From positions 64,001-128,000 of the IMG/VR virus record IMGVR_UViG_3300034103_001442: 64,000 nucleotides of DNA. One strand, written 5' to 3'. The DNA comes from a virus. Below, one piece after another: positions 21,533 through 52,205 of this stretch; the stretch's first letter is position 1; each line of letters opens with the position of its first letter. A program made the position numbers and the translations under genes. The notes beneath the pieces are model-generated. The model was not told the DNA's origin. It saw only the letters and a program-made list of their open reading frames with translations, and did no database searches.

Positions 21533-21544
21533 TATTTATAAATA
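21533..21544. promoter_or_regulatory. overlapping divergent late promoters
   Basis: TATTTATAAATA gives TATAAATA on both strands between divergent genes. Confidence 0.8.
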
Positions 21545-27948: not shown

Positions 27949-28398
27949 TCAACCTTCACCATAGGTCTCAAACTCAAACTCACCATCGACAACAGTCACC
28001 TTGACCAACTTGCCATCAGCACCACCGCTTGTGCGCAAATAGTCACGACCACCATCAATCATGTATGGTCCTTTAGTAACATAATCATGTCGAAAACGAC
28101 TCACAAGAACCTCACCATCTTCTGTCAACAAGCCTGTGATTGGTTCACTGAATGCACTTGCAGCATCAGTGATCATCACTTGTCCCTTGTAGGGACGAAA
28201 CATTCCAAAGTAATGCGAGTGACCTTTGCTCACATCAGGATTCGGTTGATAAAAAACATCAACAGGTGTGTCTGACCAACCAGACTCAAGTCTGATTGCC
28301 CAGTATCCCATATACTTGGCACCATATTGTTTTTCGATAACAGCAATTGCGTCAGGGCTGAAATAGAAACTGGGCGTCTTGATAAACATTGTGCTCAT
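27949..28398 (-). CDS. hypothetical protein
   Basis: SRFRHDY..IDGGRDYLR; follows promoter 28405-28433. Confidence 0.7.
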   Translation of the reverse strand: MSTMFIKTPSFYFSPDAIAVIEKQYGAKYMGYWAIRLESGWSDTPVDVFYQPNPDVSKGHSHYFGMFRPYKGQVMITDAASAFSEPITGLLTEDGEVLVSRFRHDYVTKGPYMIDGGRDYLRTSGGADGKLVKVTVVDGEFEFETYGEG

Positions 28399-28404
28399 AG
28401 ATCA

Positions 28405-28433
28405 ATTATAATCTAACAATAATAAAAAGTAAA
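28405..28433 (-). promoter_or_regulatory. phage early-type promoter
   Basis: TTTACT-N17-TATAAT. Confidence 0.7.
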
Positions 28434-28443
28434 GCAATTTTTG

Positions 28444-28833
28444 CTAACTAAATTCTCTTGAACAGAACGAATAACCTTCTGGATCATCCCAATCCCACTC
28501 TGGATTGAACCAGCCTTCCTTGCGACCTTCTTCGTTGTGAACCTTCACTTTGTAACCTTGTGGGTGATACTCATTTACCACCACATAACCTGGTCTGCCA
28601 TAAATTTCTATCAATTCAACAAACTTATCAAATGGAACCGTACCACCATACTCATCGTAGATAATTTTGTCAACAAGATACTCTTTCCACTTTTGCCAAG
28701 TGGTCAAACCATCATACTTGTAACCATGGAATGAGAATGCCCAGCCATATGAATTCTTGCCGATGTGATACTTCTCATCGTATCGCTTACAGCATTCGCA
28801 AACATTGTCAACAACATAATAATTAGTGCCCAT
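28444..28833 (-). CDS. hypothetical protein
   Basis: MGTNYY..HIGK.S.GW.F..DEYG..D..GY.F..FS. Confidence 0.7.
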   Translation of the reverse strand: MGTNYYVVDNVCECCKRYDEKYHIGKNSYGWAFSFHGYKYDGLTTWQKWKEYLVDKIIYDEYGGTVPFDKFVELIEIYGRPGYVVVNEYHPQGYKVKVHNEEGRKEGWFNPEWDWDDPEGYSFCSREFS

Positions 28834-29243
28834 TATTCAACTCCTTGTTCGTATTTGCCTTTGTTTTTTACACTGCACATTTCTCTGTTCATAACATCTT
28901 CAATGAACTTTTGATTGATACGCTTGATATGATACGCAAATCTGCCACCAAAGTAAACACAATACTCTCCCAAATAATTACTTCGCAACACGATAGTGTA
29001 TGCGCTGGTTATGGCTTGACCACCAAGACCACCAAACCCCAGTGCTGTGGAACTCCAGGTTTGACTGAACATGGCATAGACTTCAATATCACGATCACTA
29101 TGCTTGCGAGTTTTGGTAACTCTTTTGTTTTCTCCAGTTTTACCGAAATGTTCCCAATCACGGTCCTCGTATTCAATCAGAGGAAACCCCTCGTACATCG
29201 CATGAGCAATAGCATTAGATAAATTCTGTACTGCGTATTCCAT
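28833..29243 (-). CDS. hypothetical protein
   Basis: F.QTWSSTALGFGG.GGQA.T.AYT. Confidence 0.7.
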   Translation of the reverse strand: MEYAVQNLSNAIAHAMYEGFPLIEYEDRDWEHFGKTGENKRVTKTRKHSDRDIEVYAMFSQTWSSTALGFGGLGGQAITSAYTIVLRSNYLGEYCVYFGGRFAYHIKRINQKFIEDVMNREMCSVKNKGKYEQGVE

Positions 29244-29461
29244 TATTCAACTCCCACAACTTTGAATTCTTGATTCTCACGTTTGAACTGGTTTGCAGCA
29301 TGCTGTGCTGCTTCTTCTGTAGTGAAGAAGTAATCCTTCAGCCACATTTCCCAGTCAGACCATTCGATATGCGACTTGAAGAAGCAACCGTTGTAGCAGC
29401 GTCTTTGTGGGTCGTCGTTGATCAATTGACCACGACGGATGTATAAAGTATATTTCATCAC
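29243..29461 (-). CDS. hypothetical protein
   Basis: DPQRRCYNGC. Confidence 0.6.
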   Translation of the reverse strand: MMKYTLYIRRGQLINDDPQRRCYNGCFFKSHIEWSDWEMWLKDYFFTTEEAAQHAANQFKRENQEFKVVGVE

Positions 29462-29703
29462 TTAACTCCAAAATGCTTTTTCAAATCCTCAACACAACGA
29501 CGGACTTCAAAGTCCTCACGATTGTTATCACCCATGTATCGTTTGTTAACTACACCGATACATTCTTGAACAATCAACTCAGCGAACTTTTCCAATCCTG
29601 GTGAAATCATTATTTCTATTGGACCACCAACCCATAGTTGGTCTTTAATTGGCTCATATGCAAATCCAGCCTGTAGAGCAAGTTCTTTAATTCGTTCGTT
29701 CAT
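29458..29703 (-). CDS. hypothetical protein
   Basis: MNERIKELA.QAG..EKFAELIV.EC..HFGV. Confidence 0.7.
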   Translation of the reverse strand: MNERIKELALQAGFAYEPIKDQLWVGGPIEIMISPGLEKFAELIVQECIGVVNKRYMGDNNREDFEVRRCVEDLKKHFGVK

Positions 29704-29706
29704 TCT

Positions 29707-30066
29707 TCAACTCCGATAAGTCTGTTCTGTTTCACGAATCCAGAACGCAGCATCTTCGGACTCAGAATCCCAAGAAGAATCTGCATCATACTGACGCAAC
29801 AATTGCTCCGTCGTTTGCAGATCATCCAAGTAACCACGACCGAACTGCGCAAGACGACCCTGCACATCTTCGCATGCAAAGTCAGAATCCCAATCGAACT
29901 CTGCTTGAAATGCATCGCAATAATCGCAAGAACCGAATGCGCCTTGCACCCAGCCACGCTGACCTTGGTACTCGACCAAAGCAACCCATGAGCCTTGCCA
30001 GTCACCAAACTCCTGAAACGCGATCACTCGCGCACCAGCAGCAACCAATGAATCTTGATATGACAT
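29707..30066 (-). CDS. hypothetical protein
   Basis: GDWQG..GSCDYCD; follows promoter 30073-30101. Confidence 0.7.
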   Translation of the reverse strand: MSYQDSLVAAGARVIAFQEFGDWQGSWVALVEYQGQRGWVQGAFGSCDYCDAFQAEFDWDSDFACEDVQGRLAQFGRGYLDDLQTTEQLLRQYDADSSWDSESEDAAFWIRETEQTYRS

Positions 30067-30072
30067 ATTAAG

Positions 30073-30101
30073 AATATACCCTACCTTGAAAATAAAATAA
30101 A
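30073..30101 (-). promoter_or_regulatory. phage early-type promoter
   Basis: TTTATT-TTATTTTCAAGGTAGGG-TATATT. Confidence 0.65.
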
Positions 30102-30102
30102 G

Positions 30103-30357
30103 TTAGGCAACCACCTGAATGCGCGGCTCAATCCACTCGTCGTCGAACATGTGCTGACCAGGAAGGGGAGCAACGAAAGTGTCAGACCAGAACCTCTCTT
30201 CAACCTTACCCTCCCACACACGCTTGATCTTGTTGGCGCGGAAAGTGCCATCAGGAAGAATGGCAGTCACGAGACCGACATAATAACAATCCGTCGTGCT
30301 CGGAAAATCGAGCGACTTCACGACGGAACCTACTTCAACAGTGTTTTCAGTTTTCAT
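30103..30357 (-). CDS. hypothetical early protein (possibly leaderless mRNA)
   Basis: ATG 6 nt after -10 box. Confidence 0.65.
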   Translation of the reverse strand: MKTENTVEVGSVVKSLDFPSTTDCYYVGLVTAILPDGTFRANKIKRVWEGKVEERFWSDTFVAPLPGQHMFDDEWIEPRIQVVA

Positions 30358-30363
30358 ATTATC

Positions 30364-30392
30364 AGTATAGGTTATTTCAGAAATAAAGAAAA
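30364..30392 (-). promoter_or_regulatory. phage early-type promoter
   Basis: TTTTCT-TTATTTCTGAAATAACC-TATACT. Confidence 0.75.
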
Positions 30393-30410
30393 GTCTTTTA
30401 TTTTAATAAG

Positions 30411-30423
30411 AATCAATGAGTTA
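30411..30423. promoter_or_regulatory. IHF consensus site
   Basis: AATCAATGAGTTA matches WATCAANNNNTTR. Confidence 0.55.
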
Positions 30424-30430
30424 CAGGCAT

Positions 30431-30458
30431 AAAAAAAGGGTGCCCTTTCGGACACCCT
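30431..30458 (-). terminator. rho-independent terminator
   Basis: AGGGTGTCC-GAAA-GGGCACCCT then T-run. Confidence 0.85.
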
Positions 30459-30590
30459 CCCACGATGCGTGTATCGAGAGGAACCCCACCTGCTGAGAAC
30501 CAGCTGCCTCGACTGTTCCAATCGTCTCTAACGAGACACTTGCCACTTTACGGACTCTAGAAACCGTAACCCACGCACCACATTGTGTAG
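30431..30590 (-). ncRNA. candidate structured late non-coding RNA (~160 nt incl. terminator)
   Basis: between TATAAATA and GAAA-loop terminator; multi-stem fold; no RBS-led ORF seen. Confidence 0.65.
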
Positions 30591-30593
30591 TCT

Positions 30594-30601
30594 TATTTAT
30601 A
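30594..30601 (-). promoter_or_regulatory. T4-type late promoter TATAAATA
   Basis: exact consensus. Confidence 0.8.
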
Positions 30602-30626
30602 ATGGGAAGTTGATTTTTTCAAAAAA

Positions 30627-32021
30627 TTATTTAAAATTTTGGAATTTTGTTTTGTCAAATTTGAACTCTGTGATCTTTTCGCCAAACTTTCCCTTATCAG
30701 CCACTGGACCATCATCCATGATATTGTGTTGGGCTGCAACCTCAACATCATAGAGTTTCATCTTTGACCTATCAATACCAACAACAAATCTTCGGTTGTT
30801 GCCTGGATCACCATAACGGTTCTTCAACTGCTTGACCAAAATTTGGTTCATGCGTTCAAGTTCCTCAGTGCTGATCAACGCAAACATAAAGTCAGCCGTA
30901 GCAGGTAGACCAAATGACTCGGAGGTATCTTCAAGTCCAACATCAGAGTTTGTAAAGCCAGACCTGTTCGTTTGGGTTGCTGATATAATTGGAACGTTAG
31001 ACTCAACCGCAAGCCCACGCAACTCTTCAGCAATTGCCTTGATGTACATATAACTGTTGACATTGCTGTTTGGCTTGATTCTTGATGAGGCGCAAATGTT
31101 CAGATAGTCAATGTAGATAATATCAGGGACAAAGTTTTTCTTGACTTTCAACTCACCAAGCAGGTGGCGAAAGTTTGCCGAGCCAGCACAAGCAGTTGGA
31201 TACTCTTTGACGATCAACTTACCCTTGGCTTTTTCTCTAATTTTAGTAATCTTGCGGTCATATGAGTCTTTTGGTAAGTCCTTGAGTTCATCAAGGGTGA
31301 CATCCATAAGGTTGGCATCAATACGTTCAGCAATCTTTTCCTCAGCCATTTCCATGGTGATATACAAAACGTTGTAACCACTGATAAGGTTGTATGCCGC
31401 GCAATGACACATAAACAAAGATTTACCAACGCCTGTTCCCGCGAGCGCGATGTTCAAAGTTTTTTTGGGCAAACCGCCATCGGTAATTTTGTTAAAGTAT
31501 TCGAGGTCAAATGGAATCTTTGACTCACGCTTATGATACAATTCAAAACGTTCATCAGAGTCGAGAAGGAAGTCGTGACCGATGCTACTATCAAATGATA
31601 CACCAAGCGCATCAGATAAAATTTTTGGAATTGATCCAACTGAAATCTTATCGTCTTTTTTATCAACCAACTTAATGGCTTCCATCAATGCATTGTATAG
31701 TGCCTTGTCTTTACAAAACTCTTCAGTGCGGTCAACCAACCAATCGAGTTCACGGTCTTCACTTTCTTTCAGTGTTCCAATCAACTCTTTGGTTAATTTA
31801 AACTGCTCTTCATTCAGATCAGTTGAACTTTGAATATCAATCAGCAACGCTTCCTTGGTCGGAAGTTTGTTATATTGTTTTACATACTTATCAATCAATT
31901 CAAAAATAACTTTGTGATTGCGGTCACGGAAATAATCGACACGCAAAAACGGTATGACCTTACGGGCATACTCTTCCCTATATATCAGGTTACCAAAAAT
32001 TATTTCTTCGATGTTGATCAT
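30627..32021 (-). CDS. gp41: T4-like replicative helicase gp41
   Basis: AGTGVGKS, EMAEE, KEYPT, IDYLNIC, SESFGLPATAD, QLKNRY. Confidence 0.97.
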   Translation of the reverse strand: MINIEEIIFGNLIYREEYARKVIPFLRVDYFRDRNHKVIFELIDKYVKQYNKLPTKEALLIDIQSSTDLNEEQFKLTKELIGTLKESEDRELDWLVDRTEEFCKDKALYNALMEAIKLVDKKDDKISVGSIPKILSDALGVSFDSSIGHDFLLDSDERFELYHKRESKIPFDLEYFNKITDGGLPKKTLNIALAGTGVGKSLFMCHCAAYNLISGYNVLYITMEMAEEKIAERIDANLMDVTLDELKDLPKDSYDRKITKIREKAKGKLIVKEYPTACAGSANFRHLLGELKVKKNFVPDIIYIDYLNICASSRIKPNSNVNSYMYIKAIAEELRGLAVESNVPIISATQTNRSGFTNSDVGLEDTSESFGLPATADFMFALISTEELERMNQILVKQLKNRYGDPGNNRRFVVGIDRSKMKLYDVEVAAQHNIMDDGPVADKGKFGEKITEFKFDKTKFQNFK

Positions 32022-33073
32022 TCAGACTCCACAAATTCTTCGTTGCCTTCGTCATCGGTCATGCCGTAACTGTAATACTTTTTGGCAGCGGCTTCAAGTT
32101 GTTCCATAACTTCCTTGGTGAAGAATTTTTCTGGCTCATCATTGATTGCCTTACCGAAAACTTTATCACCATTTGGAAGTTCGTAGCGAGTGCTGACCTT
32201 CTTAAATACCCCAGCCTTCTCAGCAAGTTCAAGCAAGCCATAGTATTTGTCAAGACCAGACTTGTATGAAAGTTTCACAACAGCGGAGGCGTTTTCCTTC
32301 GACATACGTGACTTATACATCTTGATCTTAATCAAGTTACCAACAACATCAGTGCCATCCTTGTCTTTGCTCTTTGAAAGCATAGCAATGGTTGATGCGG
32401 CATACTTCAAACCAGTGCCGCCCGAGATTTCATTTGTCGGAACATAAGCACCAACTGCAGCATAAACGTGATTGGTCAGAAGCATTGGAATTTTAGCCCG
32501 AGCAAGTTTTAAAGTCAATACCCTGAATGCAGCCTTGATGACCTGTGCCTTGGTCATATCGCGAGTTTCCTTACCCTCAGAACTATCTTCCATTTCTTTT
32601 GTAGTTGACAGCATGCCAAGTGAGTCAAGCACAAACATCATTGGGGGACGTTTATCGGCAGGGCGTGCGATGTAAGCATCAATCAACTTAATGGCATGAT
32701 GACGAAACTTCTGAATTGTATCAGGCTCGGCATAAATGACACGGTTGACATCAACGCCACGTGACTTCATCATATCACGAGTCACTGCGGCTTCGGTGTC
32801 ATAATAAACAACGCCAGCGTCAGGGTTGTTGTCAAGAAAGTTCTTGACGATGCCGAGGACGAAAAATGTTTTACCAGTTGATGATTCACCAGCGAATGCA
32901 GTGATTTTGTTATTTGGAACACCACCATACAAACTACCACTCAACACTGCGTTGAGCATGTATGATCCAGTGTCAATGAAACCAGAATATTCACCAGCAC
33001 CCTCGCCATCTGCAACGATGCTTGTATCCTCGTCTTTAATTTGATCTACTAAACTTCTAAAAAAATCGGTCAT
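32018..33073 (-). CDS. uvsX: RecA-like recombinase UvsX
   Basis: GESSTGKT, YDTE, LDSLG, RDMT, SGG.GL.YAAS. Confidence 0.95.
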   Translation of the reverse strand: MTDFFRSLVDQIKDEDTSIVADGEGAGEYSGFIDTGSYMLNAVLSGSLYGGVPNNKITAFAGESSTGKTFFVLGIVKNFLDNNPDAGVVYYDTEAAVTRDMMKSRGVDVNRVIYAEPDTIQKFRHHAIKLIDAYIARPADKRPPMMFVLDSLGMLSTTKEMEDSSEGKETRDMTKAQVIKAAFRVLTLKLARAKIPMLLTNHVYAAVGAYVPTNEISGGTGLKYAASTIAMLSKSKDKDGTDVVGNLIKIKMYKSRMSKENASAVVKLSYKSGLDKYYGLLELAEKAGVFKKVSTRYELPNGDKVFGKAINDEPEKFFTKEVMEQLEAAAKKYYSYGMTDDEGNEEFVESE

Positions 33074-47349: not shown

Positions 47350-47422
47350 GGTAGCGGAGCCGAGAGTTGCACTCGGAATTGAGGATTATGAGTCCTCTGT
47401 GATGCTGTTTCACTACCCCGCA
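47350..47422 (-). tRNA. tRNA-Met(CAT), initiator-like, atypical
   Basis: GAGGA-CTCATAA-TCCTC arm; 1:72 mismatch; T-loop TGCAA; ends ACCG not ACCA. Confidence 0.75.
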
Positions 47423-47427
47423 ATAGA

Positions 47428-47661
47428 TCACTTCTCGCACTTGTCCAGCAAGTAGGCTTTCGCAGTACGTAATTCTGAGTTTGACAAAGAACCATCGTTG
47501 TTCTTGTCTGCTCTTTCAAAAAGTTTTGCATCAACATCGCAATAACGGTTGAGGTCTTCAAGTGTTACCTTACCATCTTGATCAAAATCGTAAATTGATA
47601 CACGGTCAACTGCCAATGCTGGTGTTGATGCGAGAGCGAGTGCTAGAATAAACTTCTTCAT
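47428..47661 (-). CDS. exported EF-hand protein
   Basis: signal ALA; DFDQDGKVTLED and DKNNDGSLSNSE. Confidence 0.8.
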   Translation of the reverse strand: MKKFILALALASTPALAVDRVSIYDFDQDGKVTLEDLNRYCDVDAKLFERADKNNDGSLSNSELRTAKAYLLDKCEK

Positions 47662-48074
47662 TTTGTGATTTCTCCAATTTTCTTATAACCGTTACCAGTG
47701 GGATGTATGCCATCTTTTGATAGGGATGGAATCCTAATAATCCAATCACCATACATCTCCGCAATACTTTCTACATACTCTTGAATTCTGACGATAGGGA
47801 TTTCGCTAGTCTTTGCATTACCAGCAGGAAGAATCCAGTATACCGTTTCTGCTTGTACTCGTTCGCGCAGTTTAAACAGTTCCTTTTCAGTCTTAATGTA
47901 CTTGTGGTCATTACTACCAAGACTGATTACAACAATCCTACCAGCAAATTTTTGCGGATACTTTTTGTTGAATTGTGTGGTATTGATTCCACTCGTAGCA
48001 TAAGCCACACACTCGGGGCGAGCCTGTGCAGTGCCAACAGCAATACTATCACCCAAAATCAAACAGTCAATCAT
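47658..48074 (-). CDS. SGNH/GDSL hydrolase
   Basis: GDSIA, SLGSND, DGIHP. Confidence 0.85.
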   Translation of the reverse strand: MIDCLILGDSIAVGTAQARPECVAYATSGINTTQFNKKYPQKFAGRIVVISLGSNDHKYIKTEKELFKLRERVQAETVYWILPAGNAKTSEIPIVRIQEYVESIAEMYGDWIIRIPSLSKDGIHPTGNGYKKIGEITK

Positions 48075-48136
48075 ATTTCTTTTTTATGCCAATAATTTGG
48101 TATACGACAAAATGTCGCACACTTACTTATATAGAA

Positions 48137-48256
48137 TCAGCCCTTTTTTTGGCTCTTTCTATTAATTTTTTTACCCTGACCGAAAATGCGCTCCCAGTTT
48201 TTGTCAAACTGTTTTTTTGGGATGCTCAACGGTCTTTGTTTACTACCTTTGGACAT
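48137..48256 (-). CDS. 39-aa basic protein
   Basis: hand-translated MSKGSKQRP..QFDKNWERIFG. Confidence 0.55.
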   Translation of the reverse strand: MSKGSKQRPLSIPKKQFDKNWERIFGQGKKINRKSQKKG

Positions 48257-48257
48257 A

Positions 48258-48830
48258 TCAATTTTTCCAAACACGACTGTTCTTTGGGATACTCGCCATC
48301 AAGTATTCCATTTGATCAGCGAGCACCTTACGATTTTTCAGTAGTATACGTTCATGCACAGTTGGTGCATATGGAACATAGATCAAATGCATCTTGGCTT
48401 CTTCTGGTGTACGGTTGCCTTTACGATGATTACATGAACGGCAAGCAGTGACACAGTTAGTCCACTGATTTGTACCGCCTCGGGATTTCGGATGAACATG
48501 GTCAATCGTCAATTGGCTTGATGAAAACTCATCACCACAGTATGCACAAATATGCCAGTCACGAGCATACAACGTCATTCGATCAGCAAATTTGGTTTGT
48601 TGATTGTAAAACTTATCACCAAGCAATGGACCACTGACACCGATGATTGAAGAAATATCAATGCGTGATTGCTCGCCAAAATTGTTACGCCCACCAAACA
48701 TGGACTTCACTTTGGTTCCCAATTCCCACAACACTTTTTCTTTTGCGTAATAACAAGCAGCCATTTCAAAATTCACCCAGTCTTTGGGCATGCCGCCTTT
48801 ATCAACAACCAATACCAGTGACACAATCAA
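48258..48830 (-). CDS. HNH endonuclease
   Basis: RD..CAYCG, TIDHV.P.SRGG, N.VTAC..CN..K. Confidence 0.9.
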   Translation of the reverse strand: MIVSLVLVVDKGGMPKDWVNFEMAACYYAKEKVLWELGTKVKSMFGGRNNFGEQSRIDISSIIGVSGPLLGDKFYNQQTKFADRMTLYARDWHICAYCGDEFSSSQLTIDHVHPKSRGGTNQWTNCVTACRSCNHRKGNRTPEEAKMHLIYVPYAPTVHERILLKNRKVLADQMEYLMASIPKNSRVWKN

Positions 48831-48963
48831 CTCCTACCAGTGATGGATAATATTTGCTATGATAAAAATACAAGTTACGATTTCTAGGGCACGGATACAC
48901 CACCAAATAACTGGTGTATGTTTTTCAACTTTTCTACTATATCTAGTGATCATATTTTATTTA

Positions 48964-49047
48964 TGGTGCCCAGAAGAGGACTCGAACCTCCATGCCTTTC
49001 GACGGCAGATTCTAAGTCTGCTGTGTATACCATTCCACCATCTGGGC
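48964..49047 (-). tRNA. tRNA-Leu(TAG)
   Basis: cloverleaf, long variable arm, CCA. Confidence 0.92.
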
Positions 49048-49058
49048 GTTTTAAATTT

Positions 49059-49148
49059 TGGCGGAAGCGGAAGGATTCGAACCTTCGTGTCCCGTTAAGG
49101 ACTGCTTGTTTTCAAGACAAGTGCGATCAACCACTCTGCCACGCTTCC
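49059..49148 (-). tRNA. tRNA-Ser(TGA)
   Basis: cloverleaf, long variable arm, CCA. Confidence 0.92.
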
Positions 49149-49160
49149 AAAATTTTATTC

Positions 49161-49478
49161 CTACGAATTTATCTTATAATACTCTTTCATGATAAAAAAG
49201 TCAAGCGCCTTAACAATCTTGCTAATCCTATAGGACTGATTGTCACCTGCCGCTTGACGTGTTTGATGGTTTACTAGATGTAACTCATAAACCAAATCTT
49301 CAAATGTAATACTTTTGTTTCTAATTTTCCGTAGTATTTCACGGTATTGTTCCGCGTATTGATATACTTCTTTGTTGTATGAAATACCACTAGCAGATGC
49401 ACCTTTGTTATCAAGCGCATCGCAAAGCATATCAACATGCGGCTGTAAATCTTCGAACCGTAATTTCTTTTGTGTCAT
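49161..49478 (-). CDS. hypothetical protein
   Basis: ORF between tRNAs. Confidence 0.5.
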   Translation of the reverse strand: MTQKKLRFEDLQPHVDMLCDALDNKGASASGISYNKEVYQYAEQYREILRKIRNKSITFEDLVYELHLVNHQTRQAAGDNQSYRISKIVKALDFFIMKEYYKINS

Positions 49479-49483
49479 AAAAT

Positions 49484-49557
49484 TGGAGCGGGATGCGAGA
49501 ATCGAACTCGCGCGTAAACCTTGGCAAGGTTTCAGGCTACCATTACATCAATCCCGC
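49484..49557 (-). tRNA. tRNA-Gly(GCC)
   Basis: loop TTGCCAA, TCCA end. Confidence 0.92.
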
Positions 49558-49569
49558 ATAAATAGTTAT

Positions 49570-49746
49570 ATGGAAATATCGAATGTAAAAGAAAATAGTT
49601 TGATACAAGGTAATTTAGTCGAAAAACCTAAACCTGTACCGCAAGTACCTTCCGAGTCCAGTTTACTCTCAACACCGCCAGAAGAAATTCAAAAAAATAT
49701 AGAGCGTTGGAGAGAGTTTAATGAACGCATACATGTAGTTGTTTAA
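49570..49746 (+). CDS. small hypothetical protein opposite tRNA cluster
   Basis: ATG just after CATAAATA late-like promoter. Confidence 0.5.
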   Translation: MEISNVKENSLIQGNLVEKPKPVPQVPSESSLLSTPPEEIQKNIERWREFNERIHVVV

Positions 49747-49748
49747 AA

Positions 49749-49823
49749 TGGTGCGCGATGAGAGGGTCGAACTCCCGACATTTGCCGTGTAAAGGCACTA
49801 CTCTACCACTGAGTTAATCGCGC
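49749..49823 (-). tRNA. tRNA-Val(TAC)
   Basis: loop TTTACAC, CCA. Confidence 0.92.
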
Positions 49824-49824
49824 A

Positions 49825-50121
49825 TTAATTCGTCAACACTCTATATAGACCATAAGTGTCTACAATAGTCAATAGCAAATAATTAGCAAACATACCAAAA
49901 CTATTTCGTGTCCATGCCGCCCAAGCATACATGGCGCAACCACTCATCCAAAATGGATATAACAATTTGAGTGGTGGATCGGGAACAGTTACAGCCATAG
50001 CAACGGTGCAACCGATACTGATAATCCAAGCGATCACTTCAACGCAAAATCTAAACGGATACGATTGATAATCGGTTTTCGCCCAATTCCATGTATCAAC
50101 CATTGCTTTTTTGATAATCAT
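49825..50121 (-). CDS. membrane protein
   Basis: three hydrophobic segments. Confidence 0.65.
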   Translation of the reverse strand: MIIKKAMVDTWNWAKTDYQSYPFRFCVEVIAWIISIGCTVAMAVTVPDPPLKLLYPFWMSGCAMYAWAAWTRNSFGMFANYLLLTIVDTYGLYRVLTN

Positions 50122-50134
50122 AGTTCCCTCAATT

Positions 50135-50210
50135 TGGCGCGCTCGGCAGGATTCGAACCTGCGTATATCTGCTTAGAAGGCAGATGCCTCATCCACTAGA
50201 CTACGAGCGC
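50135..50210 (-). tRNA. tRNA-Arg(TCT)
   Basis: loop CTTCTAA, CCA. Confidence 0.92.
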
Positions 50211-50211
50211 A

Positions 50212-50285
50212 TGGAGCAGAGTAGGAGAATCGAACTCCTTTGACCAGCTTGGAAGGCTGGGACACAACCAATATGCCAACTCTGC
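50212..50285 (-). tRNA. tRNA-Gly(TCC)
   Basis: loop CTTCCAA, TCCA. Confidence 0.92.
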
Positions 50286-50292
50286 GTAACAC

Positions 50293-50377
50293 TGGTGCGA
50301 CTGGTCGGACTTGAACCGACATGGCTAACGCCGACAGATTTTAAGTCTGTTGTGTATACCGATTCCACCACAGTCGC
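50293..50377 (-). tRNA. tRNA-Leu(TAA)
   Basis: loop CTTAAAA, variable arm, CCA. Confidence 0.92.
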
Positions 50378-50382
50378 GAAAA

Positions 50383-50459
50383 TGGTCGGACAGAGAGGAT
50401 TCGAACCTCCGACCCTCTGCTCCCAAAGCAGATGCACTACCAGGCTGTGCTACTGTCCG
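50383..50459 (-). tRNA. tRNA-Pro(TGG)
   Basis: CGG start, loop TTTGGGA, CCA. Confidence 0.92.
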
Positions 50460-50467
50460 ATTTATAC

Positions 50468-50496
50468 ATTATAAGTTAGTGATGAAATAAAGTCAA
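50468..50496 (-). promoter_or_regulatory. sigma70-like promoter within tRNA cluster
   Basis: TTGACT-TTATTTCATCACTAACT-TATAAT. Confidence 0.8.
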
Positions 50497-50497
50497 G

Positions 50498-50574
50498 TGG
50501 TGCGCCCACTAGGACTTGAACCTAGAATCAACAGATTATGAGTCTGCTGCATTAACCAATTATGCTATAGGCGC
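50498..50574 (-). tRNA. tRNA-CAT (Ile2 or Met)
   Basis: loop CTCATAA, CCA; identity ambiguous. Confidence 0.85.
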
Positions 50575-50578
50575 GAAA

Positions 50579-50653
50579 TGGAGTTGCGGACTGGACTCGC
50601 ACCAGCATAGAACAGTTTTGCAGACTGTCGCCTAACTTCTCAGCCACCGCAAC
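50579..50653 (-). tRNA. tRNA-Cys(GCA)
   Basis: loop CTGCAAA, TCCA; T-loop TGCGA variant. Confidence 0.88.
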
Positions 50654-50726
50654 AAAATTTACTGATCGGTAAAATTTTGTTAACAATAATTAACAATGTC
50701 AAAAAATTTACTGATCGGGAAAATTT
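50654..50726. repeat. two direct copies of a GATC-centred near-palindrome
   Basis: AAAATTTACTGATCGG(T/G)AAAATTT at 50654 and 50703. Confidence 0.7.
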
Positions 50727-50801
50727 GGTAGCAACGGTTGGACTCGAACCAACGATAAACTCCGTATGAAGGAGGTGCATTAGCCACTATGCTACGTTGC
50801 C
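50726..50801 (-). tRNA. tRNA-Met(CAT), elongator-like
   Basis: loop TTCATAC, CCA. Confidence 0.88.
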
Positions 50802-50803
50802 AT

Positions 50804-50890
50804 TGGCGGAAGGCAGTGTACTCGAAACACATTCCCAAAGGGAACCATCTGTTTAGCAAACAGCGACAGATCCTCTCTGCTTTACCTTCC
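50804..50890 (-). tRNA. tRNA-Ser(GCT)
   Basis: loop TTGCTAA, long variable arm, GCCA. Confidence 0.88.
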
Positions 50891-50895
50891 TAAAA

Positions 50896-50972
50896 TGGCG
50901 ACTCGGATGGGACTTGAACCCACGACCTCATGCGTGACAGGCATGTGAACTAACCAACTGTTCTACCGAGCC
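50896..50972 (-). tRNA. tRNA-Asp(GTC)
   Basis: loop CTGTCAC, GCCA. Confidence 0.92.
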
Positions 50973-50976
50973 AACT

Positions 50977-51053
50977 TGGTGGGACAAGATGGATTCGAAC
51001 CATCGACCTCAGTCTTATCAGGACTGTGCGCTAACCAACTGTGCCATTGTCCC
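50977..51053 (-). tRNA. tRNA-Ile(GAT)
   Basis: loop CTGATAA, CCA. Confidence 0.92.
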
Positions 51054-51059
51054 GAATAA

Positions 51060-51146
51060 TGGTGGGAAAGGAAGGATTCGAACCTACTCAGCCGATTGGC
51101 GACAGATTTACAGTCTGTTGTGACTCTCCAACTTCACCGCTTGCCC
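51060..51146 (-). tRNA. tRNA-Tyr(GTA)
   Basis: loop CTGTAAA, variable arm, CCA. Confidence 0.9.
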
Positions 51147-51155
51147 ACATAAACT

Positions 51156-51229
51156 TGGCTGAGGCGCATGGATTCGAACCACGATAAGCAGGATCAAAAC
51201 CTGCTGTCCTGCCGTTAGACGACGCCTCA
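51156..51229 (-). tRNA. tRNA-Gln(TTG)
   Basis: T1-A72, loop TTTTGAT, GCCA. Confidence 0.92.
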
Positions 51230-51461
51230 AAAATAAAATGCTTCCCCCTGCAGGCGGTTTTTGTCGTCCCACCACAAACACTTATGTGGTATCCGCATCC
51301 CAACACAGGGAGATTGTCGTATTGCCAACGCTGAACTTCATCAGGGAGATCACTATGGGAATCCAACCCATTTCTCATCATGCGTGTCGCACTAGCCATT
51401 GGATTCATGGCACGTTATGATAGCCGACACGTACATTGCTGCAGAGGTGTCGGGCATATTT

Positions 51462-51536
51462 TGGTGGAGGATGAGAGAATCGAACTCTCAACTCTGCGAT
51501 GCAAACGCAGCGTGTTCCCATTAGCACTAATCCCCC
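51462..51536 (-). tRNA. tRNA-Ala(TGC)
   Basis: G3-U70, loop TTTGCAT, CCA. Confidence 0.92.
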
Positions 51537-51698
51537 AATAAGGTGTGGGCTACCATTTAAGGTTTGTTCTTAATCCTTACCCCCACACAGCAAGGTTGCG
51601 ATCCGTTCTGCCTCATAATTCGATCAGTGCTACCGAAACGGATAAGCCCTTACACTGATAGGATGAACCCGACAGAGCGCGCCTGCAGGTCACCAAGA

Positions 51699-51773
51699 TG
51701 GCTGGCGAGGATGGGATCGAACCATCGACAGGCTGATTAACAGTCAGCTGATCTACCTCTGATCTACTCGCCA
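51699..51773 (-). tRNA. tRNA-Asn(GTT)
   Basis: loop CTGTTAA, GCCA. Confidence 0.92.
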
Positions 51774-51785
51774 AAAAAATTAAAC

Positions 51786-51860
51786 TGGCTCCCCGATACG
51801 GACTCGAACCGCAACCAACAGTTTTGGAGACTGCGATGCTACCAATTACACCATCGAGGA
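51786..51860 (-). tRNA. tRNA-Trp(CCA)
   Basis: loop CTCCAAA, GCCA. Confidence 0.9.
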
Positions 51861-51872
51861 ACAATCACAATA

Positions 51873-51948
51873 TGGTGAGACCACTGGGACTCGAACCCAG
51901 AACTTACGAGTTAAAAGCACGTTACTCTACCAGTTGAGTTATGGTCTC
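51873..51948 (-). tRNA. tRNA-Lys(TTT)
   Basis: loop CTTTTAA, CCA; one mismatch in anticodon stem. Confidence 0.9.
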
Positions 51949-51962
51949 AAATTCATAATATA

Positions 51963-52037
51963 TGGTGAACCCAAGGGAATTCGAATCCCTATTCCATCCG
52001 TGAAAGGGATGTGTCCTAACCGTTAGACGATGGGTCC
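51963..52037 (-). tRNA. tRNA-Glu(TTC)
   Basis: loop CTTTCAC, CCA. Confidence 0.92.
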
Positions 52038-52129
52038 GCAAAAGGTGCTGGTTACTCATCCAGCGTCACAATGTGCTTCGGGGTGACAGTCTCCGCTGCT
52101 ACGAACTTCTGATAGCAGTCAGGTTAAAT

Positions 52130-52205
52130 TGGTGCCTTCAGAGAGACTCGAACTCCCAACCTACTGATTACAAATCAGTTGCACTACCAATTGTGCTATG
52201 AAGGC
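52130..52205 (-). tRNA. tRNA-Thr(TGT)
   Basis: loop TTTGTAA, CCA. Confidence 0.92.

What the first reader, a model, noticed from the sequence alone, without database searches (positions are those of the whole stretch)
30431..30601. Stand-alone structured late ncRNA downstream of gp41 helicase
Seen on the minus strand: an exact TATAAATA promoter, about 130 nt with no convincing ORF, then a GAAA-loop terminator. Fold read by eye: closing helix UGUGGUGCGUG/CACGCAUCGUG (with G-U pairs); hairpins UUACGG/CCGUAA and GUCUC/GAGAC; arm UCGAG/CUCGA containing CUG/CAG; a possible pseudoknot GGAAC/GUUCC; purine-rich linkers AGUGGCAAGU and GGUGGGG. I do not recognise it as tRNA, tmRNA, SRP, 6S or a known ribozyme. 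Inference: a dedicated late RNA gene, for example a packaging/assembly RNA, a decoy or antitoxin RNA, or a ribozyme.
Basis: partly seen in the sequence, partly recalled or inferred. Interest (0 to 1): 0.75.

Follow-up and report, generated by a model that had tools for sequence, protein, structure and literature searches.

The report
New late structured RNA of T4-like phages
Downstream of the gp41 helicase gene this phage carries a small RNA gene with its own late promoter and terminator. It belongs to an undescribed, strongly conserved RNA family found only in uncultured aquatic T4-like phages, and its function is unknown.

Summary
On the minus strand, TATAAATA (30601-30594) is followed by a unit of about 155 nt that ends in a GAAA-loop terminator (30457-30431).

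- **Family:** I found 101 distinct homologues in uncultured T4-like phage contigs (IMG/VR). There was no match in Rfam 15, in 50,697 cultured-phage records, or in one genome each of 185,579 prokaryote species.
- **Structure:** Covariation supports a four-way junction (P1-P4), an optional hairpin P4a, and a 3-bp hairpin P4b. The P4b stem occurs in seven complementary versions under an invariant heptaloop, UGGGGUU. Two junction strands are also invariant.
- **Transcription unit:** Every copy has a late-promoter box and a terminator. Downstream genes differ. In 18 of 108 loci the RNA converges on its neighbour. It is therefore a stand-alone, trans-acting RNA, not a riboswitch or leader.
- **Neighbouring protein:** A small protein gene usually lies next to the RNA, but it is not an obligate partner.
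- **Expression:** Freshwater metatranscriptomes contain the RNA. One 142-nt RNA-library contig runs from the promoter to the U-tract, which is a weak hint of a discrete transcript.
- **Function:** Unknown. I favour fold-dependent binding of a conserved partner late in infection. P4b resembles the ribosomal P-loop; this is a lead only.

First-stage readers flagged the same family in another genome.

The parts
30594..30601 (-). T4-type late promoter box TATAAATA
   Evidence: Read. In 76 of 108 homologous loci there is an exact TATAAATA just upstream. Most of the others show variants ending in TAAATA, and a few show no clear box.
30431..30588 (-). Predicted primary transcript of about 155 nt. The start is inferred to lie about 6-8 nt after the promoter box; the end is in the U-tract.
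   Evidence: The covariance models match 30461-30593 (86.7 bits, E = 3.6e-20). The ends are inferred, not measured. In a homologue, a 142-nt RNA-library contig runs from 3 nt after the box into the U-tract.
30572..30578 (-). P1, 5' strand (7 nt). Pairs with 30465-30471.
   Evidence: All 7 pairs show changes on both sides across the family.
30548..30569 (-). P2 hairpin (6 bp in the window, 10-nt loop)
   Evidence: All 7 family pairs covary. Loop length varies.
30539..30547 (-). J2/3 junction strand holding the near-invariant GGCA(A/C)G
   Evidence: Conserved in all 81 distinct sequences of A4. Note that this word was part of the search pattern.
30523..30538 (-). P3 hairpin (6 bp, GUUA loop)
   Evidence: All 5 modelled pairs covary. 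Stem length and loop vary.
30514..30522 (-). J3/4 junction strand holding the invariant GGAA
   Evidence: GGAA is invariant in 80 of 80 sequences. It stays single-stranded once the pseudoknot is rejected.
30508..30513 (-). P4, 5' strand. Pairs with 30473-30478.
   Evidence: 100% of cells are paired and 4 of 6 pairs show double changes. This helix is anchored without gaps next to invariant words.
30492..30504 (-). P4a, an optional inner hairpin (4 bp, 5-nt loop)
   Evidence: In the commonest form it is replaced by a bulge of about 5 nt, mostly A-rich. It is present with other complementary stems in many relatives.
30479..30491 (-). P4b: a 3-bp stem closing the invariant heptaloop UGGGGUU (30482-30488)
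   Evidence: Seven different complementary stems occur in 101 of 103 distinct pattern matches. The other two are false hits. The loop is always the same and a fourth pair almost never forms.
30465..30478 (-). P4 3' strand (30473-30478), one junction A (30472), and P1 3' strand (30465-30471)
30431..30457 (-). Intrinsic terminator: 8-bp stem, GAAA loop, seven T
   Evidence: Folded. All 108 loci listed show a G+C-rich hairpin of differing sequence; 90 have a run of at least 5 T and the rest mostly 4. Not flagged by the simple scan.
30627..32021 (-). Upstream neighbour: gp41-type DnaB-like replicative helicase (context only, not part of the RNA)
   Evidence: Pfam DnaB_C, E = 1.4e-17. It is 60-63% identical to gp41 of cyanophages and Melnitz.

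Best explanation
**What is shown.** This is an independent, late-transcribed, non-coding RNA gene of a new family, inserted like a 'moron' between the replication genes (DNA polymerase, UvsX, gp41) and the next gene block.
- The RNA folds into a four-way junction (P1-P4).
- P4 carries an optional side hairpin (P4a).
- P4 ends in a 3-bp hairpin (P4b) with an invariant seven-base loop.
- Two junction strands (J2/3 and J3/4) are also invariant, while all helices change sequence freely.

**What is inferred.**
- The RNA acts in trans through its three-dimensional fold.
- The junction holds the invariant loop and junction strands in a fixed arrangement.
- That arrangement binds a highly conserved partner during the late phase. 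The partner would most likely be a protein or a large RNA of the translation or RNA-processing machinery, from the host or the phage.
- The RNA would sequester, guide or scaffold that partner.
- It does not act by regulating a neighbouring gene, by encoding a peptide, or by long antisense pairing.
For: **A real RNA on this strand**
- Covariation is found in P1, P2, P3, P4 and P4b.
- Many G-U pairs would be A-C mismatches on the other strand.

**An independent unit**
- A late-promoter box lies directly before P1 and a terminator follows P1 in the homologues.
- Terminator sequences differ freely.
- The gene after the RNA often has its own TATAAATA.
- Downstream genes fall into many unrelated clusters.
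- In 18 of 108 loci the RNA converges on the neighbouring gene, so nothing lies downstream to regulate.

**Function carried by the fold**
- About 20 invariant bases sit in the junction strands and one loop, while the helices vary.
- P2 and P3 vary in length and P4a is optional.

**Restricted to phages**
- More than 100 variants occur in IMG/VR.
- There was no covariance-model match at E <= 1 in the 79 pattern hits from 596 Gb of prokaryote genomes. Those hits lie in coding regions.

**Present in RNA libraries**
- It occurs in four freshwater metatranscriptome studies.
- No extended complement of the invariant elements exists in the phage's own 151.7-kb record.
Against: - No partner has been identified.
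- The only recurrent neighbour, a ~65-aa protein, is not an obligate partner. The window's record has the RNA without that protein. Many relatives have the protein without the RNA.
- Expression is not demonstrated. All RNA runs were available only as contigs, and two of them run straight through the neighbouring gene and the RNA, as DNA carry-over or read-through would.
- Late timing rests on the promoter consensus alone.
- Conserved junction bases fit a small-molecule pocket or a catalytic core as well as a protein-binding surface.
- The invariance of three elements is partly built in, because they were used as search patterns. However, divergent members first found through gp41 alone carry them too.
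Confidence: 0.55

Rival explanations
1. tRNA-end binder or P-loop mimic. The P4b hairpin copies the ribosomal P-loop, and it resembles the UGGN element of T-box leaders. It would pair with the CCA 3' end of tRNAs, or divert a factor that recognises the P-loop, during late translation.
For: - P4b always has exactly 3 bp and a 7-nt loop beginning UGGGG.
- E. coli 23S rRNA holds a 3-bp complementary stem around a loop with the same first five bases. It lies 2243 nt into the annotated 23S gene. That equals positions 2249-2255 if the annotation lacks 6 nt at the start.
- That this rRNA hairpin binds C74-C75 of P-site tRNA is established knowledge.
- The phage invests heavily in translation, with 22 tRNA genes in the window.
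Against: - The resemblance covers 5 of 7 loop bases of a very short element and could be chance.
- Nothing else in the RNA resembles a T-box or RNase P.
- tRNAs are abundant, so a stoichiometric sponge is implausible.
Confidence: 0.1
2. Trans-acting small-molecule binder: an aptamer without an expression platform. It would sequester or sense a metabolite or a nucleotide signal, for example a host defence second messenger.
For: The anatomy is aptamer-like: a multi-helix junction with invariant junction bases and freely varying helices. It has accessory-gene ('moron') organisation with patchy distribution, being present in 13 of the 80 closest gp41 loci.
Against: - No known riboswitch class matches.
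- No precedent is known to me for an RNA sponge of this kind.
- Late expression is an odd time to counter defence signalling.
Confidence: 0.1
3. Base-pairing regulator. The invariant loop, possibly with the junction strands, pairs with a conserved host or phage RNA through a kissing contact and changes its translation or stability.
For: It is a stand-alone promoter-to-terminator sRNA unit with a U-tail. It has a 7-nt invariant exposed loop.
Against: - No extended complement was found in the phage record. The 7-mer complements occur at about chance numbers and not at start sites.
- The elaborate covarying four-way junction is more than a seed carrier needs.
- The host is unknown, so host targets could not be searched.
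Confidence: 0.12
4. Ribozyme: a new self-cleaving or trans-acting catalytic RNA.
For: It has a compact junction with about 20 invariant bases. Phage and metagenome sequences are rich in small ribozymes (established knowledge).
Against: - No match to any ribozyme model in Rfam 15 at E <= 10.
- It is a single copy in a dedicated unit rather than part of a processed or repeated transcript.
- The 142-nt RNA-library contig spans the whole unit uncut (weak evidence).
Confidence: 0.08
5. Cis-regulatory element: a riboswitch or attenuator that controls read-through of its terminator into the genes downstream, or a 3' element of the gp41 mRNA.
For: Aptamer-like fold directly followed by a terminator. 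In two RNA runs, contigs run from the upstream gene through the RNA.
Against: - Downstream genes are unrelated between loci.
- Many downstream genes have their own late promoter right after the terminator.
- In 18 of 108 loci the RNA faces the 3' end of the neighbouring gene.
- Each copy has its own promoter box placed a few bases before P1.
- Terminator sequences vary freely while the core is constant in the main group.
Confidence: 0.04
6. RNA partner of the neighbouring ~65-aa protein (motif LNLGGGFDGWTP), forming a ribonucleoprotein or a toxin-antitoxin-like pair.
For: The protein gene ends next to the RNA in 92 of 108 loci, whichever strand the RNA is on.
Against: - The window's 151.7-kb record (87% complete) has the RNA but no such protein, as does L002.
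- At least 19 relatives have the protein followed directly by other genes, and no RNA.
- The protein model shows three strands and a helix, with no significant match to solved structures.
Confidence: 0.06
7. A short peptide gene (the main group has AUG UGG UGC GUG at the start of P1).
For: An AUG lies a few bases after the predicted start in the main group.
Against: - No ribosome-binding site.
- The peptide length and sequence change with the compensatory changes of P2.
- Divergent members have no AUG there.
- Frame-breaking indels are present.
Confidence: 0.02

Closest known systems
Orphan structured RNA motifs found by comparative genomics (Weinberg et al. 2010, PMC2864571; the 8,495 unnamed IMG/VR candidates of Fremin, Bhatt and Kyrpides 2023, PMC10690425)
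   Same: A conserved intergenic RNA with covarying helices and no assigned function, found in metagenomic phage sequence.
   Different: No Rfam 15 family matches. The main text of the 2023 catalogue describes no motif next to a DnaB/gp41 helicase and no four-way junction. Its supplementary lists are not held, so I cannot say whether part of this RNA is one of its numbered candidates.
Ribosomal P-loop (23S rRNA helix 80) and the UGGN bulge of T-box antiterminators
   Same: A very short stem presents a seven-base single-stranded element beginning UGGG(G). In the known cases these G residues pair with the CCA end of tRNA (established knowledge; the rRNA sequence and position were checked).
   Different: The last two loop bases differ. 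The surrounding RNA is unrelated. Binding is untested. I also checked my recollection that the ribosomal A-loop has the same word, and it was wrong: the second CUGGGGC in 23S lies about 30 nt upstream of the A-loop.
Riboswitch aptamers built on multi-helix junctions
   Same: Freely covarying helices around invariant junction bases; size about 115-135 nt; followed by a terminator.
   Different: No conserved downstream gene, its own promoter, convergent arrangements in some loci, and no known class match.
Small stable RNAs C and D of phage T4 (my own knowledge, not checked here)
   Same: Small non-coding RNAs of unknown function encoded by a T4-type phage.
   Different: Those RNAs lie in the tRNA cluster and are processed from its transcript. 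This RNA lies 17 kb from the tRNA cluster, with its own late promoter. blastn of three family members against 50,697 phage records found nothing.
Phage 'morons' (accessory genes with their own promoter and terminator, inserted between conserved genes)
   Same: A promoter-gene-terminator cassette at a module boundary, with patchy distribution among relatives.
   Different: The cargo is a structured RNA rather than a protein gene.

Membership tests
Any Rfam 15 family (tRNA, tmRNA, SRP, 6S, RNase P, riboswitches, ribozymes, known phage RNAs) | Covariance-model score at or above the family's gathering score | tested here: not met
   The whole window gives only 22 tRNAs elsewhere. A permissive scan of 30300-30750 and of a divergent homologue gives only chance-level hits: the best E is 0.5 and all scores are far below gathering.
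tRNA / tmRNA | Cloverleaf or tRNA-like domain with a tag reading frame, as detected by ARAGORN | tested here: not met
   No gene found in 28000-33000.
T4-type late transcription unit | TATAAATA box directly upstream of the transcribed element | tested here: met
   Box at 30601-30594. An exact box is present in 76 of 108 homologous loci; most of the rest have variants ending in TAAATA.
T4-type late transcription unit | Transcription late in infection, dependent on the phage late sigma and sliding-clamp coactivators | not testable with these tools
   No cultured phage carries the RNA. RNA runs were available only as contigs.
Intrinsic (Rho-independent) terminator | G+C-rich hairpin followed by a U-run | tested here: met
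   8-bp stem, GAAA loop and seven U in the fold. Hairpin plus T-run is present in the homologues. The simple consensus scan did not list it.
Riboswitch / cis-regulatory leader | A constant class of gene directly downstream on the same strand | tested here: not met
   Downstream genes fall into many unrelated clusters, and 18 of 108 loci are convergent.
Riboswitch / cis-regulatory leader | Conserved alternative pairing between aptamer and terminator (an expression platform) | tested here: inconclusive
   Terminator sequences vary freely under a constant core in the main group, which argues against it. I did not search systematically for covarying antiterminators.
   The fifth pair is broken in 10 of 80 sequences. 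In 16 distinct variants the 3' strand is replaced by other letters that instead pair within P4b. Only 1 nt and 0 nt would link the two helices.
Type III toxin-antitoxin RNA (ToxI-like) | Tandem repeats of the RNA unit next to a toxin gene | tested here: not met
   No tandem repeat, one copy per genome, and no constant neighbouring protein.
Known self-cleaving ribozyme classes | Match to the class model; cleavage in vitro | tested here: not met
   No model match. Cleavage itself cannot be tested here.
P-loop-like / UGGN CCA-binding element | A short stem presenting a 7-nt element that begins UGGG(G) | tested here: met
   A 3-bp stem with an invariant heptaloop in 101 distinct sequences. The rRNA counterpart was verified in E. 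coli 23S.
P-loop-like / UGGN CCA-binding element | Pairs with C74-C75 of tRNA | not testable with these tools
   Needs binding assays.
Small-protein gene | A reading frame kept across homologues | tested here: not met
   Indels of 1, 2 and 4 nt and an optional 15-nt hairpin. There is no AUG in divergent members.

The most novel reading that the evidence does not exclude
A phage-encoded RNA uses a miniature copy of the ribosomal P-loop, held on a four-way junction, to capture the CCA 3' ends of tRNAs, or to decoy a factor that recognises the P-loop. That would give T4-like phages an RNA-based handle on the host translation apparatus late in infection.
Probability: 0.1. Interest if true: 0.85.

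Novelty: categorically new. Interest (0 to 1): 0.66.

Why it matters
T4-like phages are among the best-studied viruses and dominate aquatic viromes, yet almost no stand-alone structured RNAs are known from them apart from tRNAs. In this family about 20 bases are invariant across phages whose helicase proteins are only about 62-68% identical to the window's. The family also has its own late promoter. That degree of constraint is usual for RNAs that contact a conserved machine or ligand.

If the partner is found, it would show a new way in which phages use RNA late in infection. Possibilities include translation control, anti-defence or assembly. The RNA is small enough (115-135 nt) for direct biochemical and structural work.

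One caveat applies to the novelty claim. A 2023 catalogue of unnamed IMG/VR candidate RNAs may already list part of it. I could not check its supplementary files.

Tried and rejected
1. **Rfam.** Gathering and permissive scans on the window and on a divergent member gave nothing.
2. **ARAGORN.** No tRNA or tmRNA found. I tried this because Melnitz-like phages carry two-piece tmRNAs (PMC9004378).
3. **Cultured phages.** blastn with three family members and with the conserved 45-nt core found only chance hits at E = 9. The covariance model found nothing in Melnitz.
4. **Prokaryote genomes.** The pattern scan gave 79 hits. My estimate of the chance expectation is about 50. All hits I read lie in coding sequence, such as Obg-type GTPase motifs, and none matches the model.
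5. **Neighbouring small protein as partner.** It co-occurs by synteny only. Its predicted fold (pLDDT 74) has no significant match in the PDB; the nearest, very weak, rows include YegP-like proteins. Pfam gives nothing, and PHROGs gives only phrog_29065 of unknown function. tblastn against cultured phages gives nothing.
6. **Antisense targets.** No targets of the invariant elements were found in the phage's own record.
7. **Metatranscriptomes.**
   - Only assembled contigs were available, so starts, ends, strand and level could not be measured.
   - Contigs in X1 and X2 bridge the neighbouring gene and the RNA.
   - Parts without cover carry no weight.
8. **A-loop recollection.** My memory that the ribosomal A-loop shares the loop word was checked and dropped.
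9. **Consensus terminator scan.** It missed the terminator.
10. **Host type.** There is no psbA in the record, so the phage is probably not a cyanophage. The host remains unknown.
11. **Literature.** Full-text searches found no description.

Full report
**What is in the window.**
- The window is part of a 151.7-kb IMG/VR record of a T4-like myovirus.
- On the minus strand the genes run family-B DNA polymerase, a UvsX/RecA protein, then a DnaB-like gp41 helicase at 32021-30627. The helicase is 60-63% identical to gp41 of cyanophages and of Methylophilales phage Melnitz.
- Twenty-five bases after the gp41 stop codon lies an exact TATAAATA (30601-30594).
- About 155 nt further on is an 8-bp G+C-rich hairpin with a GAAA loop and seven T (30457-30431).
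- The stretch folds better than its shuffles (-60.8 kcal/mol, z = -3.1).
- It has no conserved reading frame.

**It is a family.**
- Neither blastn against 50,697 cultured-phage records nor Rfam found anything.
- Fetching the DNA around gp41 relatives from IMG/VR gave homologues just downstream of gp41, at 82% and 69% identity.
- Two exact words from the conserved parts then found dozens of contigs holding both words at a fixed spacing. Each had TATAAATA in front and a hairpin plus T-run behind.
- A covariance model built from 29 of these (A2, R1) found much more divergent copies next to gp41 in other contigs, and these have quite different helix sequences.
- A looser three-word pattern brought in 89 model matches, 81 of them distinct.
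- A further pattern that excluded the common P4b stem found more variants.
- In all I count 101 distinct family sequences.
- It is patchy. Only 13 of the 80 loci with the most similar gp41 have it, mostly those with the closest gp41.

**It is phage-specific as far as can be seen.**
- The three-word pattern hit 79 places in one genome each of 185,579 prokaryote species. I estimate about 50 hits from chance alone.
- None of these places matches the model at E <= 1, and the ones I read are coding sequence.
- No cultured phage has it.
- The window's record has one copy.
- The record has no psbA, so the host is probably not a cyanobacterium.
- The run search for a relative's variant returned mainly freshwater samples.

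**Structure.**
- On the 81 distinct sequences, 94.9% of cells form standard pairs. This falls to 36-41% when the 3' partners are slid by 1-3 columns.
- All 7 pairs of P1, all 7 of P2, all 5 of P3 and 4 of 6 of P4 show changes on both sides.
- That alignment was fitted to the model. However, P4 and P4b are anchored without gaps to invariant words.
- An independent MAFFT + RNAalifold run on 18 diverse members recovers P1, P3, P4 and P4b. In that run 14 of 18 pairs carry compensatory changes.
- The many G-U pairs fix the strand as the minus strand of the window.
- The base before and the base after the word around the loop covary (C-G 37, A-U 26, U-A 14).
- In other variants the whole 3-bp stem is replaced. 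Seven complementary versions occur, always around the same seven-base loop, and a fourth pair almost never forms.
- This establishes the hairpin P4b (30491-30479 in the window).
The 3' strand of that pseudoknot is part of P4b. In 16 distinct variants it changes in ways that keep P4b but break the pseudoknot. The fifth pair of the pseudoknot is already broken in 10 of 80 sequences. Only one base and no base would connect the two helices.
The commonest form has a short bulge instead, mostly A-rich.
- The invariant elements are the P4b loop, a junction word in J2/3 and GGAA in J3/4. These words were used to find many members. They are also present in the divergent members that were found through gp41 alone.

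**It is a stand-alone unit.**
- Of 108 loci, 76 have an exact TATAAATA a few bases before P1. Most of the others have variants ending in TAAATA, and a few have no clear box.
- All 108 have a hairpin followed by T's, with unrelated hairpin sequences.
- In many loci the next gene has its own TATAAATA right after the terminator.
- Gene order around the RNA is usually UvsX, gp41, a ~65-aa protein, then the RNA. After that come unrelated genes: many small ORFs in one group, and tandem DUF6321 proteins in another.
- In 18 of 108 loci the RNA lies on the opposite strand, converging on the small protein gene.
- A leader or riboswitch cannot explain these arrangements.

**The neighbouring protein is not an obligate partner.**
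- The ~65-aa protein (conserved motif LNLGGGFDGWTP) is adjacent in 92 of 108 loci.
- It is absent from the window's record and from L002.
- At least 19 relatives have the protein directly followed by other genes and no RNA.
- Its model has three strands and a helix (pLDDT 74). It has no significant structural match and no Pfam family.
- The adjacency is best read as shared gene order at an insertion hot spot.

**Expression.**
- Eleven runs recorded as RNA hold part of a relative's locus.
- I laid four freshwater metatranscriptomes from four studies on it.
- All are assembled contigs, so they cannot show level, strand or true ends.
- Two runs have contigs that bridge the protein gene, the RNA and the terminator. 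This fits read-through or DNA carry-over.
- One run has a contig whose whole length (142 nt) runs from 3 nt after the promoter box into the U-tract. It is separate from a lower-depth contig covering the upstream gene.
- That is what a discrete abundant transcript would give, but it is only a hint.

**What it most likely does.** The gene's reality, strand, fold and independence are shown. The mechanism is inferred.
- Freely varying helices, about 20 invariant unpaired bases and a dedicated transcription unit fit an RNA that works in trans through its shape.
- My favoured reading is binding of a conserved macromolecular partner late in infection (0.55 for the whole statement; about 0.9 that it is a real independent RNA gene).
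- The rivals are a trans-acting ligand binder, a kissing-loop regulator, a ribozyme, and a tRNA-end binder.
- The tRNA-end idea comes from a resemblance that I could check only in part. P4b is a 3-bp stem with a seven-base loop starting UGGGG. So is helix 80 of 23S rRNA, whose sequence and position I verified in E. coli. That this rRNA loop pairs with the CCA end of P-site tRNA is textbook knowledge. Whether the phage RNA does anything similar is untested.

**Novelty.**
- There is no Rfam family, and I found no description in the papers searched.
- A 2023 screen of IMG/VR intergenic regions produced 8,495 unnamed candidates, up to 151 nt long. It may include this motif or a piece of it. Its lists were not available to me.
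- First-stage readers of this scan noted the same kind of unit in another genome. They proposed the same pseudoknot, which does not hold.

Noticed in passing
L296:8500-8700 (+); also L090:1284-1523 (-), L282:11050-11283 (+): A family of ~60-80-aa proteins with the conserved motif LNLGGGFDGWTP lies directly after gp41 in many aquatic T4-like phages. It has no Pfam family and only a weak match to phrog_29065 (unknown function). The predicted fold is three strands and a helix. It is absent from the window's own record.
   Followed up: partly
window 47352-52205 (-): A cluster of 22 tRNA genes lies on the same strand as the replication genes, a large set for a 152-kb phage.
   Followed up: no
window 21533-21544: Two overlapping TATAAATA boxes on opposite strands form a palindromic pair of late-promoter boxes. 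The window holds 7 exact boxes against 1.9 expected.
   Followed up: no
L321:3516-4502 (+) and neighbours; also L289, L333, L281: In one group of carrier phages the RNA is followed by two to four tandem paralogues of a ~330-aa protein with a C-terminal DUF6321 domain. Each appears to be preceded by a late-promoter box.
   Followed up: partly
L093, L106, L115, L147, L188, L220: about 10 nt after the RNA's terminator: A conserved word, GTTTACAATATATTC, follows the terminator in several main-group loci. It resembles the -35 region of T4 early promoters (my own knowledge). If so, the late RNA unit sits between early transcription units.
   Followed up: no
window 27949-30357 (-): Seven consecutive small ORFs (72-149 aa) downstream of the RNA have no Pfam match.
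   Followed up: partly
window 30431-30457 (-): The consensus terminator scan reports no terminator here, although the fold shows a textbook one. Probably the stem can extend into the T-run, so that too few T remain after it.
   Followed up: partly
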